DNA of 64,000 bases, taken from positions 25,380,534-25,444,533 of the forward strand of contig CM120644.1 in the NCBI GenBank assembly GCA_051362555.1, read 5' to 3'. A program made the translations under genes and the position numbers. Source of the stretch: Lingula anatina (Eukaryota; Animalia; Brachiopoda). The notes beneath the pieces were generated by a model. It saw only the letters and a list, made by a program, of their open reading frames with translations, did no database searches and was not told where the DNA came from. The stretch's first letter is position 1. The number at the start of each line of letters is the position of its first letter. Shown piece by piece: positions 124 through 49,313 of the stretch.

Positions 124-3100
124 CTTTCATTGTAAGACTGCAGCATGATAGTGACAGCATATGAGATGACACGCTGACGATTCCTGAGGAAATATCTGGA
201 TATCCCCGTCTCTATCCAGGCCATGCCAAACAGCAACTCTGACAGGAAAGAAGACCAAATTTTAATTTTCTTTTTTGGATTAAATTGTTAAATTCCAGTA
301 AGTATATCAATTTCTTTCATCAAGTTACCCCTTGATAAATATCACCTAACTGTGAACACTTCCCTGATGAAGTAATGTCTTTTAATTCTGTAAACCTTCT
401 TGTCATCAACTATTACTAGTCTACTAAAGGTAATGTCTCCATGTTCTCACCTCTCAATGGTGGTACCATCTCCATGTTGCTGGCACCATAATTCTTGTAA
501 ATGGTGTTGATGATTTCCCCATCGGACTGAAACCTGGAAAATTTTGGAACACATATGAAATACTTTTCCTTCAAATATTTGAACAGTCATAACAACTGAC
601 TGCCATGTGTCCATCTAGTGTCAACCTGCTGATAAACTGACCACATCTTGCAGCTCAAGGTGAATCCACATGTTAATGTCGCCTGAATTGGTCAATATAG
701 CTTTTCCCCATTTATCTTTAAATGTAAATTACTTATCTACATATTAGCTCAAAAAATGTAATACCTTTAGAGGGAAAATTCCCCTTTTCATTGTTTTAGT
801 CACCATGCAACATTCTTTTCAGCTATAAAGCCATTTATCCTCAATTCAACTGCTTTGTTAATTTGTGGAAGATGGTGATCAGTTTAAACACTTTACTCCA
901 GATCTATATAAGATATTATCATATCAGTATCTTCACTTCACACAGTACAGGATCTCCTACCTTGCTAGGTCTCTGTTCCACAGATTGGCAGGAGATAAGA
1001 CCAGACAGCTATATTATCATATCAGTATCCTACCTTGCTAGGTCTCTATTCCACAGGTTAGCAGGAGATAAGACCAGACAGCTATATTATCATATCAGTA
1101 TCCTACCTTGCTAGGTCTCTATTCCACAGGTTGGCAGGAGATAAGACCAGACAGCTATATTATCATATCAGTATCCTACTTCTCCAGGTCTCTATTCCAC
1201 AGGTTGGCAGGAGATAAGACCAGACAGCTATATTATCATATCAGTATCCTACCTTGCTAGGTCTCTATTCCACAGGTTAGCAGGAGATAAGACCAGACAG
1301 CTATATTATCATATCAGTATCCTACCTTGCTAGGTCTCTATTCCACAGGTTAGCAGGAGATAAGACCAGACAGCTATATTATCATATCAGTATCCTACCT
1401 TGCTAGGTCTCTATTCCACAGGTTAGCAGGAGATAAGACCAGACAGCTATATTATCATATCAGTATCCTACCTTGCTAGGTCTCTATTCCACAGGTTAGC
1501 AGGAGATAAGACCAGACAGCTATATTATCATATCAGTATCCTACCTTGCTAGGTCTCTATTCCACAGGTTAGCAGGAGATAAGACCAGACAGCTATATTA
1601 TCATATCAGTATCCTACCTTGCTAGGTCTCTGTTCCACAGATTGGCAGGAGATAAGACCAGACAGCTATATTATCATATCAGTATCCTACCTTGCTAGGT
1701 CTCTATTCCACAGGTTAGCAGGAGATAAGACCAGACAGCTATATTATCATATCAGTATCCTACCTTGCTAGGTCTCTATTCCACAGGTTAGCAGGAGATA
1801 AGACCAGACAGCTATATTATCATATCAGTATCCTACCTTGCTAGGTCTCTATTCCACAGGTTAGCAGGAGATAAGACCAGACAGCTATATTATCATATCA
1901 GTATCCTACCTTGCTAGGTCTCTATTCCACAGGTTAGCAGGAGATAAGACCAGACAGCTATATTATCATATCAGTATCCTACCTTGCTAGGTCTCTATTC
2001 CACAGGTTAGCAGGAGATAAGACCAGACAGCTATATTATCATATCAGTATCCTACTTCTCCAGGTCTCTATTCCACAGGTTGGCAGGAGATAAGACCAGA
2101 CAGCTATATTATCATATCAGTATCCTACTTCTCCAGGTCTCTATTCCACAGGTTAGCAGGAGATAAGACCAGACAGTTATATTATCATATCAGTATCCTA
2201 CCTTGCTAGGTCTCTATTCCACAGGTTAGCAGGAGATAAGACCAGACAGCTATATTATCATATCAGTATCCTACCTTGCTAGGTCTCTATTCCACAGGTT
2301 AGCAGGAGATAAGACCAGACAGCTATATTATCATATCAGTATCCTACCTTGCTAGGTCTCTGTTCCACAGATTGGCAGGAGATAAGACCAGACAGCTATA
2401 TTATCATATCAGTATCCTACTTCTCCAGGTCTCTATTCCACAGGTTGGCAGGAGATAAGACCAGACAGTTATATTATCATATCAGTATCCTACCTTGCTA
2501 GGTCTCTATTCCACAGGTTAGCAGGAGATAAGACCAGACAGTTATATTATCATATCAGTATCCTACCTTGCTAGGTCTCTATTCCACAGGTTAGCAGGAG
2601 ATAAGACCAGACAGCTATATTATCATATCAGTATCCTACCTTGCTAGGTCTCTATTCCACAGGTTGGCAGGAGATAAGACCAGACAGTTATATTATCATA
2701 TCAGTATCCTACCTTGCTAGGTCTCTATTCCACAGGTTAGCAGGAGATAAGACCAGACAGTTATATTATCATATCAGTATCCTACCTTGCTAGGTCTCTA
2801 TTCCACAGGTTAGCAGGAGATAAGACCAGACAGCTATATTATCATATCAGTATCCTACCTTGCTAGGTCTCTGTTCCACAGATTGGCAGGAGATAAGACC
2901 AGACAGCTATATTATCATATCAGTATCCTACCTTGCTAGGTCTCTATTCCACAGGTTAGCAGGAGATAAGACCAGACAGCTATATTATCATATCAGTATC
3001 CTACCTTGCTAGGTCTCTATTCCACAGGTTAGCAGGAGATAAGACCAGACAGTTATATTATCATATCAGTATCCTACCTTGCTAGGTCTCTATTCCACAG

Positions 3101-47000: not shown

Positions 47001-49313
47001 GTCAACTGCTTCTGTCCAGGTAATATATATATATATACACATGTCAACTGCTTCTGTCCAGGTAATATATATATATATATATGTATATATATATATATAT
47101 ATATATATATATATATGTATATATATATGTATATATATATATATATGTCAACTTCTTCTGTCCAGGTAATATATATATATATATATATATATATGTGTAT
47201 ATATATATATATATATATATGTATATATATATATATATATGTCAACTGCTTCTGTCCAGGTAATATACACATGTCTGAAAAAATCAGGACAGGTCAGAGG
47301 TCATAATGAGGAAAGGACAAAGGTCGTAGTGAGGACAGGTCAAAGGTTGTAATGACGGAAGGTCACAGGTCATAAAAAAGACAGGTCAAAGGTCATATAA
47401 TTATGTTAGGTCAGAGGTCACAATGATGACAGGTCAATGGTCAAAATGAGGACGGGTTATAAGTCGTTAGTAGGACAGGTCAAGGGTCAAAATGAGGACA
47501 GGTCAAAGGTCGTAATGAGGACGGGTTAGAAGTAGTTAGTAGGACAGGTCAAAGGTCAAAATGAGGACAGGTCAAAGGTCGTAATGAGGACGGGTTAGAG
47601 GTCGTTAGTAGGGCAGGTCAAAGGTCAAAATGAGTACAGGTCAAAGGTCATAATAGTCTTGATCTTAAACTAAATTGTACAGAATCTGCCACTTTTCAGT
47701 TACATGCAGTGGTTGGAGAAGTGATGTAATTCATTCCATGGTTTTTTTCATCAAATAAGGTACTTTGGTACCCAAACCTCTGAAAGTGTCACAATGCATG
47801 ACTTAATGGGGATGTATTCTTTCTTCTAGGAATGATTCGTACCCAAATTGGTCGAAATATTGTCGGCTGTATCAAGTGCTTGTACAACTTTGCTTTCTGC
47901 TGCTGTGGTTGTCTTGGACACAGTCTGCACCAGGGTGGAAACGCCATTGTACAACTGGCTGTCAGCGATGTTGTTAAAGGTAAAGTAAATATATTATTGG
48001 TATTCCTGGTACAACTGACTGTCAGTGATGTTGTTAAAGGTAAAGTAAATATATTATTGGTATTCCTGGTACAACTGACTGTCATTGATGTTGTAAAAGG
48101 TAGAGTAAATATATTATTGGTATTCCTGACTGTCAGTGATGTTGTAAAAGGTAAAGTAAATATATTATTGGTATTTCTGGTACAACTGGCTGTCAGTGAT
48201 GTTGTAAAAGGTAAAGTAAATATATTATTGGTATTCCTGGTACAACTGACTGTCAGTGATGTCGTAAAGGGTAAAGTAAATATATTATTGGTATTCCTGG
48301 TACAACTGACTGTCAGTGATGTCGTAAAGGGTAAAGTAAATATATTATTGGTATTCCTGGTACAACTGACTGTCAGTGATGTCGTAAAAGGTAAAGGAAA
48401 TATACTATTGGTATTCCTGGTACAACTGACTGTTAGTGATGTTGTAAAAGGTAAAGTAAATATATTATTGGTATTTCTGGTACAACTGGCGGTAATCAGT
48501 GATGTTGTAAAGGGTAAAGTAAATATATTATTGGTATTCCTGGTACAACTGACTGTCAGTGATGTCGTAAAAGGTAAAGAAAATATATTATTGGTATTCC
48601 TGGTACAACTGACTGTTAGTGATGTCGTAAAAGGTAAAGTAAATATCTTATTTGTATTCCTGGTACAACTGACTGTCAGTGATGTCGTAAAAGGTAAAGT
48701 AAATATCTTATTTGTATTCCTGGTACAACTGACTGTCAGTGATGTCGTAAAAGGTAAAGTAAATATATTATTGGTATTCCTGGTACAACTGACTGTCAGT
48801 GATGTTGTAAAAGGTAAAGTAAATATCTTATTTGTATTCCTGGTACAACTGACTGTCAGTGATGTCGTAAAAGGTAAAGTAAATATCTTATTTGTATTCC
48901 TGGTACAACTGACTGTCAGTGATGTTGTAAAAGGTAAAGTAAATATATTATTGGTATTCCTGGTACAACTGACTGTCAGTGATGTCATAAAAGGTAAAGT
49001 AAATATAATATTGGTATTCCAACTACAACTTACTGTCAGTGATGTTGTAAAAGGTAAAGATATATATTATTGGTATTCCTGGTACAACTGGCGGTAATCA
49101 GTTTCATTTGAGCATCAGTTGCAGTTAGTGTTGTCCAGCAGTGATATCAGCTTGTGATATTAAGACAACTTTATTTCAGGAGTAACTGGGCGTTACTTTA
49201 TCAACCAGGAAGAAGTCACTCCTGCTGCCGAGGCCTTGGATGATGAAGCCTGTAAAAAGCTGTGGACCCTCAGTGAACAGATGGTGGGAGGGAAGAAGGA
49301 AGAAAAAGAATAG
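44058..49313 (+). CDS. Short-chain dehydrogenase/reductase, retinol dehydrogenase 12/14-like, copy 2 (308 aa)
   Basis: Exons 44058-44243, 44655-44826, 45529-45648, 46813-46977, 47830-47979, 49180-49313; exon lengths identical to copy 1; [12 protein letters not shown] and YKDSK intact. Confidence 0.95.
45728..46728 (-). mobile_element. 5'-truncated RTE-type LINE fragment (about 46560-46728) with a HINE-like element (about 45735-46558) nested in its tail
   Basis: The whole block is flanked by a 13-bp direct repeat aataaatgaatta (45715-27, 46729-41) and is absent from SDR1 intron 3. The minus-strand peptide [34 protein letters not shown] resembles RTE ORF C-termini. Confidence 0.7.
47286..47652. 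repeat. Degenerate aggacaggtcaaaggtc repeat tract in SDR2 intron 4
   Basis: About 15 diverged approx. 23-bp units; only a short version (about 30072-30160) exists in SDR1. Confidence 0.8.
47949..49096 (+). repeat. 60-bp minisatellite, 19 copies, spanning the SDR2 exon 5 donor
   Basis: Donor GT at 47980, 48040, 48100, 48151 ... 48451, 48514 ... 49054; one unit is 9 nt shorter and one is 3 nt longer. Confidence 0.97.

What the first reader, a model, noticed from the sequence alone, without database searches (positions are those of the whole stretch)
955..49096. Systematic tandem amplification of exon-intron junctions: decoy splice-site arrays in all four genes
Seen: unrelated tandem repeats repeatedly contain a real splice junction. 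These are the SCAP coding exon 4 donor (30x73 bp); DHX8 donors of exons 6, 8, 9, 13, 15, 16, 17, acceptors of exons 17, 18 and the stop codon; and the SDR donors of exons 2, 4, 5 in both paralogs. Each unit is an exon end plus adjoining intron, often joined at 2-4 nt microhomology (tat in SCAP, gat at DHX8 exon 17). Ages range from decayed pairs to homogeneous 30-mers, and one complete exon always survives. Established: exon definition favours the splice sites closest across the exon, and tandem duplication of AG|GT segments is a proposed route to intron gain. Inference: a lineage-wide process, possibly coupled to transcription or splicing (R-loops, pausing at junctions, template switching), seeds minisatellites at splice junctions, and the spliceosome must ignore up to 29 near-identical decoy sites. 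I know of no named system for this, but novelty is unverified.
Basis: partly seen in the sequence, partly recalled or inferred. Interest (0 to 1): 0.88.

Follow-up and report, generated by a model that had tools for sequence, protein, structure and literature searches.

The report
Splice-donor "mirage" repeats crowd brachiopod genes
In three neighbouring gene loci of what is very likely a Lingula brachiopod, short pieces holding an exon end and its splice signal are copied head to tail at 11 of 29 exon ends, and the RNA examined uses only the first copy where it could be tested; this is a known repeat type ("mirage"), likely a tolerated by-product of frequent DNA duplication, and only its strong lean towards exon ends is unexplained.

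Summary
Gene models are open ORFs (DHX8 1,210 aa, two SDR paralogs, SCAP), and RNA reads confirm 14 DHX8 introns. A junction-blind census gave 19 independent duplications in coding spans; 13 straddle a splice site (5.7 expected, p=3e-4). The excess is all at donors: 11 of 29 donors versus 2 of 29 acceptors (acceptors at chance). The two SDR genes share their arrays by descent, so there are three loci, not four. Other individuals lack some copies and carry a further donor array (DHX8 exon 10) absent here, so these are polymorphic minisatellites. RNA joins only from the first donor where testable (exons 9, 15, 6). The kind is named: amphioxus "mirages" and the human F7, CBS, 6-16, LMNB2 and PDGF junction VNTRs, where the first donor normally wins. 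This scan found the same pattern before in other genomes, several on the acceptor side. Best reading: frequent local duplication, sieved by selection and retention. A transcription- or splicing-coupled donor hotspot is untested but not excluded. I found no published count of the donor bias. One post-hoc window; long arrays not checked against reads.

The parts
124..4347 (-). SCAP, first six coding exons (4347-4235, 4067-3932, 3633-3473, 3215-3078, 533-451, 238-124)
   Evidence: open 248-aa frame; exon 4 matches Pfam SCAP_N, E=7e-14
955..3130 (-). SCAP exon 4 donor array: 73-bp unit (53 exon + 20 intron), 30 units, 29 decoy donors; the most distal copy keeps a longer intron piece (98-bp period)
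   Evidence: 10 unit types among 30 units; the 3 decoys tested give a premature stop
11715..24617 (+). DHX8/PRP22, 20 exons, 1,210 aa
   Evidence: RNA joints confirm introns 1-7 and 9-15; 98.7% identical over 454 aa to a named Lingula anatina protein
14909..14976 (+). DHX8 exon 6 donor pair, 39 bp; the decoy would add 13 aa in frame
   Evidence: also in run X3; 41 RNA reads use the first donor
16080..17548 (+). DHX8 exon 8 donor array, 81 bp, about 10 units, split by an inverted-repeat element at 16695-17349
18070..18164 (+). DHX8 exon 9 donor pair, 60 bp; polymorphic
   Evidence: a contig of run X3 skips the 60 bases; 92+8 RNA reads use the first donor
18431..18464 (+). DHX8 exon 10 donor: single copy in the window, tandem 40-bp array in runs X3 and X4
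   Evidence: tables 5c and 7 (joint going back from 18464 to 18431 with 6 letters between; depth 187.5 vs about 70 in X4, 31.2 vs about 16 in X3)
19803..19989 (+). DHX8 exon 13 donor pair, 135-bp period with CA runs
21006..21209 (+). DHX8 exon 15 donor, three decayed copies; the third is absent from alleles in X3 and X4
   Evidence: 39+6 RNA reads use the first donor
21854..21975 (+). DHX8 exon 16 donor, 53-57-bp copies with CA runs
22250..22727 (+). DHX8 exon 17 acceptor array, 95 bp x 5; only the last acceptor keeps the frame; GAT microhomology
22752..23076 (+). DHX8 exon 17 donor array, 85 bp x 3.8
23331..23514 (+). DHX8 exon 18 acceptor pair, 116-120-bp period
24588..24741 (+). 51-bp x 3 repeat over the DHX8 stop codon (not a splice junction)
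27927..31402 (+). SDR paralog 1, 6 exons, 308 aa; donor arrays at exon 2 (28550-28658), exon 4 (29845-30045), exon 5 (30451-31179, 60 bp x 12)
   Evidence: Pfam adh_short
44058..49313 (+). SDR paralog 2, 6 exons, 308 aa; the same three donor arrays (44800-44902, 46958-47267, 47949-49090, 60 bp x 19)
13857..24376 (.). intronic tandem repeats without a junction (13857, 15151, 20049, 23697, 24217; also 47280 in SDR2): the comparison set
6315..10277 (.). four arrays in the SCAP 5' leader region (6315, 7312, 7655, 8307-10277); untranslated exons there are unmapped, so they are unclassified

Best explanation
These are polymorphic 'mirage' minisatellites, tandem copies of an exon end plus intron start, which likely arise by ordinary local DNA duplication and likely pile up at donors because copies behind a donor are tolerated and retained. 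Shown: the arrays, their variation between individuals, the donor excess in this window, and first-donor splicing at DHX8 exons 9, 15 and 6. Step 1 (inferred): slippage or template switching at short homologies seeds a pair, and unequal exchange amplifies it. Step 2 (inferred): frame-breaking exon-internal copies are purged, while in-frame ones persist. Step 3 (inferred from F7): the spliceosome takes the first donor it meets, so downstream copies are spliced out, and leaks mostly carry a premature stop. Step 4 (inferred): upstream acceptor copies are met first and are probably costlier, hence fewer. Step 5 (inferred): copies abutting an exon are partly shielded from the deletions that rework intron interiors, and intron starts may be locally unstable.
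For: Donor excess: 11 versus 2.9 expected, fitted weight 10.6x (95% CI 3.8-32); acceptors 2, weight 1.9x (CI 0.3-8.8). It holds when any one gene is dropped and with TRF-only events (donor p from 8e-6 to 4e-3). High background duplication rate: 6 intronic arrays in the same spans, plus an in-frame 24-nt exon-internal duplication in 3 of 3 DNA runs and in RNA. Turnover: exon 9 pair absent in X3, third exon 15 copy absent in X3 and X4 alleles, new exon 10 array in both. Breakpoints scatter around the site (exon share of unit 0.23-0.73). RNA: 100, 45 and 41 reads at the first donor of exons 9, 15, 6, and no decoy joint among those listed. Oriented scanning picks the most upstream identical donor in F7 minigenes (PMC1557585). 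Mirages vary in length and do not disturb splicing (PMC3087553).
Against: Purifying selection alone cannot raise donors above the intron background. The sieve needs a retention advantage of about 4-6x or more (donor p=0.04 at 4x, 0.17 at 6x), which I did not measure. Among 6 polymorphic, hence probably young, non-exonic events, 3 are at donors versus 0.6 expected (rough p=0.015); that fits mutational bias better than long retention, though 2 of the 3 are in-sample. Dinucleotide runs at intron starts (7 of 29) versus ends (3 of 29) are not significant (p=0.30). Earlier scan notes describe large acceptor arrays in annelids and urchins, so selection against acceptor copies is not absolute.
Confidence: 0.52

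Rival explanations
1. A transcription- or splicing-coupled mutational hotspot at 5' splice sites (pausing, R-loops or breaks where nascent RNA leaves an exon, repaired by template switching) seeds duplications specifically across donors.
For: Donor weight about 10x over intron interior while acceptors are at chance. 3 of 6 polymorphic events are at donors. One new donor array appears in other individuals. The polarity follows transcription on both strands (SCAP minus; DHX8 and SDR plus).
Against: No direct test. Breakpoints are not splice-precise. Strictly out-of-sample, 1 of 2 new non-exonic duplications is at a donor (p=0.13), and none was listed at the 6 unoccupied donors of exons 1-5 and 7 in 3 DNA runs (2 joints not shown). 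One literature search on R-loops, donors and tandem duplications listed 2 papers, neither on this by title or abstract.
Confidence: 0.3
2. The excess is a selection effect of the scan: this window was picked because it looked extreme, and genome-wide overlap is near the placement expectation.
For: One 64-kb window, three loci, 19 events, chosen after the fact from a scan of about 250,000 windows. Counting the four SCAP leader arrays as non-junction weakens junction p to 0.004.
Against: The donor excess holds in DHX8 alone (p=0.004) and without DHX8 (p=6e-4). A further donor array turned up in independent runs.
Confidence: 0.11
3. The arrays are selected regulatory devices: ladders of decoy donors that tune expression through nonsense-mediated decay or add repeat-extended isoforms.
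For: Most decoys give premature stops. The SDR2 exon 5 array is open in frame through all 18 decoys, and the DHX8 exon 6 decoy adds 13 aa in frame.
Against: Presence/absence polymorphism. No decoy joint listed, including at the in-frame exon 6 decoy that decay could not hide (upper bound about 7-14%). The SDR1 copy of the same array has stops from its second unit on.
Confidence: 0.05
4. The arrays are assembly artefacts.
For: The long arrays were not compared with reads here, so their copy numbers rest on the assembly.
Against: Interspersed variant units. A transposon with a target duplication inside the exon 8 array. The same arrays in both SDR paralogs with different copy numbers. Contigs of other individuals cover the short duplicates at exons 6, 9 and 15.
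Confidence: 0.02

Closest known systems
Amphioxus 'mirage' minisatellites (Adh3, globins BflGb6 and BflGb9, troponin C, PGBD5). PMC3087553 and PMC3902484: passages read. Canestro et al. 2002: not readable here, known only through those two papers.
   Same: Tandem duplication spanning an exon-intron boundary on either side; units of tens to about 160 bp; copy number differs between haplotypes; splicing reported undisturbed; suggested as a general feature of a lineage and as a route to intron gain.
   Different: Here a brachiopod; 13 independent cases in three adjacent loci; up to 30 copies; overlap counted against a null, with a donor lean (11 vs 2) that the passages read do not report. Somatic instability not tested.
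Human junction-spanning VNTRs: F7 IVS7 (37 bp x 5-9), interferon-inducible 6-16 (25 pseudo-sites), CBS IVS13 (15-20), LMNB2, PDGF. PMC1557585: abstract, Introduction passages and Discussion read.
   Same: The first unit spans the donor; many identical pseudo-donors follow; the most upstream is used (one or two further sites leak in 6-16 and CBS). All five listed human cases are donors.
   Different: Isolated loci in a genome with long introns; here over a third of the donors in the genes examined carry one.
Intron gain by tandem duplication of AG|GT segments (Rogers model, as cited in PMC3087553; human cases in PMC2812944, passages read)
   Same: Duplication of a segment with splice signals inside a gene.
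   Different: No new intron or exon is seen here; extra copies fall inside the existing intron.

Membership tests
mirage / junction-spanning minisatellite | tandem unit contains a real exon-intron boundary with sequence from both sides | tested here: met
   13 independent events; junctions confirmed by RNA for DHX8 exons 6, 9, 13, 15
mirage / junction-spanning minisatellite | minisatellite-size unit, two or more copies | tested here: met
   units 26-135 bp, 2-30 copies
mirage / junction-spanning minisatellite | one intact exon; extra copies lie in the intron and keep GT or AG | tested here: met
   open ORFs; decoy sites listed; 30 of 30 SCAP units keep GT
mirage / junction-spanning minisatellite | copy number varies between alleles | tested here: met
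   exons 9, 10 and 15 differ among the window, X3 and X4; the long arrays were not examined
mirage / junction-spanning minisatellite | normal splicing uses the authentic site | tested here: met
   exons 9, 15, 6: 100, 45, 41 reads at the first donor, no decoy joint listed; RNA animals not genotyped; acceptor arrays and long arrays untested
mirage / junction-spanning minisatellite | somatic length instability (reported for Adh3) | not testable with these tools
   needs single-molecule typing within one animal
intron gain by tandem duplication | a duplicated segment is spliced out as a new intron, or a copy is recruited as a new exon | tested here: not met
   14 RNA-confirmed DHX8 introns match the one-exon model; the rest of DHX8, SCAP and SDR not examined with RNA
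transcription- or splicing-coupled duplication hotspot | new duplications enriched at donors before selection, scaling with transcription | tested here: inconclusive
   3 of 6 polymorphic events (rough p=0.015) but only 1 of 2 out-of-sample (p=0.13)

The most novel reading that the evidence does not exclude
In this lineage 5' splice sites are mutational hotspots: transcription or early spliceosome events at the donor seed tandem duplications about ten times more often than in intron interiors, so over a third of exon ends grow their own minisatellite, and first-donor choice by the spliceosome makes the process nearly free. That would be a direct link from RNA processing to germline structural mutation, with thousands of natural reporters of splice-site choice in one genome.
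Probability: 0.25. Interest if true: 0.75.

Novelty: new member of a known kind. Interest (0 to 1): 0.42.

Why it matters
The structure is known, but only as scattered cases, and its origin is described as unclear (PMC3087553). This window gives a count: 11 of 29 donors versus 2 of 29 acceptors, with segregating gains and losses. If that holds genome-wide, one highly heterozygous genome would let two questions be tested directly: whether donors are duplication hotspots or merely safe harbours, and how strictly the spliceosome prefers the first of many identical donors or the last of many acceptors. It may also bear on annotation: a public Lingula DHX8 model ends by reading into the intron at the exon 17 donor array.

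Tried and rejected
No whole genome is held, so the genome-wide test could not be run; a look-up of earlier notes on this genome was empty, as were two word look-ups. No RNA holder was listed by the run index; raw RNA runs of the same species label were laid instead. Decoy use at exons 13 and 16 could not be judged, because the read tool skipped simple repeats over those decoys and exon 17 lay outside the stretch. The SCAP, exon 8, exon 17, exon 18 and SDR arrays were not compared with reads, which leaves their copy numbers, polymorphism and decoy use open. Systematic microhomology measurement worked for 2 of 12 arrays. A 5' bias of dinucleotide runs was not significant. A coding role for the open SDR2 exon 5 array was set aside: the unit simply has no stop in that frame, and the SDR1 array is interrupted; no RNA was laid there. 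Canestro 2002 and Gao and Lynch 2009 were not held; they or their supplements may already count donor versus acceptor cases. Literature searches listed no genome-wide enrichment test for junction-spanning minisatellites and no report in Lingula; passages of the Lingula genome paper (PMC4595640) do not mention them, and its supplements were not read. PMC10078293 (passages) covers short repeats near splice sites, not this. The library lacks most subscription journals.
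Full report
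Setting. No genome is held for the window. I built gene models by coordinates. DHX8 (11715-24617, 20 exons) gives an open 1,210-aa frame. Two SDR paralogs give 308 aa each (Pfam adh_short). Six SCAP coding exons on the minus strand give an open frame (SCAP_N). DHX8 exon 16 is 100% identical to a named Lingula anatina protein, which matches the model at 98.7% over 454 aa; 11 other relatives compared are at 78-86%. The animal is very likely a Lingula brachiopod. RNA reads confirm DHX8 introns 1-7 and 9-15.

Observation. I kept 19 independent events inside coding spans. Left out of the count: one cluster merged with the exon 8 array (split by a transposon), two SDR2 copies of arrays shared with SDR1, the stop-codon repeat, four arrays in the SCAP 5' leader region where exons are unmapped, and ten clusters outside coding spans. 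The exon 16 event was classed as a donor event, since the census segment missed the first copy. Thirteen of 19 straddle a splice site: 11 donors, 2 acceptors.

Against chance. Each array was collapsed to one unit and placed at random in its collapsed gene. Expected junction hits are 4.5 (uniform) or 5.7 (exon-internal placements removed); observed 13, p=2e-5 and 3e-4. Adding the four leader arrays as misses gives p=0.004. Split by side, donors are 11 versus 2.9 expected (fitted weight 10.6x, 95% CI 3.8-32) and acceptors 2 (1.9x, CI 0.3-8.8). Per site this is 11 of 29 donors versus 2 of 29 acceptors (p=0.01). The donor excess survives a stricter margin, TRF-only events and dropping any one gene. 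The window was chosen after the fact, so these p-values overstate the case for the genome.

Real and polymorphic. The SCAP array has 10 unit types among 30 units, and its most distal copy keeps a longer intron piece. The exon 8 array holds an element with perfect 32-nt inverted arms and a 3-nt target duplication. Both SDR paralogs carry the same three arrays with different copy numbers (exon 5: 12 versus 19). Contigs of other individuals show turnover. X3 lacks the exon 9 duplicate. Alleles in X3 and X4 lack the third exon 15 copy. Both carry a 40-bp tandem array across the exon 10 donor that the window lacks. In the exon 1-8 stretch, no new donor array was listed at six unoccupied donors in three DNA runs (two joints not shown); an intronic pair was absent in X2; and an in-frame 24-nt duplication inside exon 4 was present in 3 of 3 DNA runs and in RNA. 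Local duplication is therefore common everywhere in these genes. The long arrays were not compared with reads.

Splicing. Most decoys would give a premature stop; the exceptions are DHX8 exon 6 (+13 aa), SDR1 exon 5 first decoy, three SDR2 exon 4 decoys and all 18 SDR2 exon 5 decoys. RNA joints start at the first donor: exon 9, 92+8 reads; exon 15, 39+6; exon 6, 41. No decoy joint was listed (listing needs 3 reads), and the intron bins holding the exon 9 and 15 decoys have depth 0. Upper bounds on decoy use are about 3-14%. Limits: the RNA animals are not genotyped, decay could hide stop-carrying products, exon 13 and 16 decoys were masked, and no acceptor array was tested.

Mechanism. Unit ends fall 13-53 nt inside the exon and 16-90 nt inside the intron, so the event is a DNA-level duplication that spans the site rather than a splice-precise one (inference). 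Short homology at the joint is clear for exon 17 (GAT) and SCAP (TAT) and unmeasurable for most others. I favour a sieve on a high local duplication rate (0.52). Frame-breaking exonic copies are purged, copies behind a donor are ignored because the first donor wins, copies ahead of an acceptor are probably costlier, and copies abutting exons probably outlast those in intron interiors. The weak point is that purging alone cannot lift donors above the intron background; a retention gain of about 4-6x is needed and unmeasured. Among six polymorphic non-exonic events three are at donors (rough p=0.015), but only one of two strictly new ones (p=0.13). A donor-linked mutational hotspot therefore stays open (0.30).

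What is known. PMC1557585 (abstract, Introduction passages, Discussion) lists human minisatellites whose first unit spans a donor: F7, 6-16 with 25 pseudo-sites, CBS, LMNB2, PDGF. It shows with F7 minigenes that the most upstream identical donor is chosen. PMC3087553 (passages) describes the same structure in amphioxus as 'mirages', on both boundary sides, variable in length, not disturbing splicing, of unclear origin, possibly general in cephalochordates and a candidate route to intron gain. PMC3902484 (passage) adds troponin C and PGBD5. The mirage name reached me through earlier scan notes, which report such arrays in other genomes, including clusters in neighbouring genes and large acceptor arrays; I checked the papers, not those loci. 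My searches listed no genome-wide enrichment test and no Lingula report.

Verdict. Observation confirmed, interpretation partly supported. This is a dense new instance of a named repeat kind. The part worth following is the donor lean, which one window cannot settle. Interest 0.42.

Noticed in passing
window 16695-17349: Non-coding element with perfect 32-nt terminal inverted arms and a 3-nt (CTG) target duplication, inserted at a decoy donor of the DHX8 exon 8 array; PIF/Harbinger-like by recalled features.
   Followed up: partly
window 58007-62902: LTR retrotransposon on the minus strand: two identical 279-nt direct repeats and a 1,188-aa ORF, so a very recent insertion.
   Followed up: partly
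window 13554 (DHX8 exon 4): In-frame 24-nt exon-internal duplication (+8 aa) in runs X2, X3, X4 and RNA X12, absent from the window.
   Followed up: partly
window 47949-49090: The SDR2 exon 5 array stays open in frame through all 18 decoy donors, and its two unit-length variants (51, 63 bp) keep the frame; the SDR1 array has stops from unit 2.
   Followed up: partly
window 22784 (DHX8 exon 17 donor): The public Lingula anatina DHX8-like protein (P0006, 457 aa) covers only exons 12-17 and ends by reading into the intron at this array, possibly an assembly or annotation break caused by it.
   Followed up: partly
window 11120-11715: SCAP and DHX8 appear to be head to head across about 600 bp; SCAP's 5' leader seems to span about 7 kb with four tandem arrays, including 73 bp x 27 at 8307-10277, whose minus strand has an acceptor-like motif. 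Leader exons unmapped.
   Followed up: no
window DHX8 introns 9, 11, 12, 13, 16, 19 and SDR intron 4: CA or TA runs start within 50 nt of the donor in 7 of 29 introns versus 3 of 29 at intron ends (not significant).
   Followed up: partly
window 36500-39700 and 40932-42516: Tandem copies of an 877-bp unit, and an element of about 1.6 kb with long inverted arms, between the SDR paralogs.
   Followed up: no
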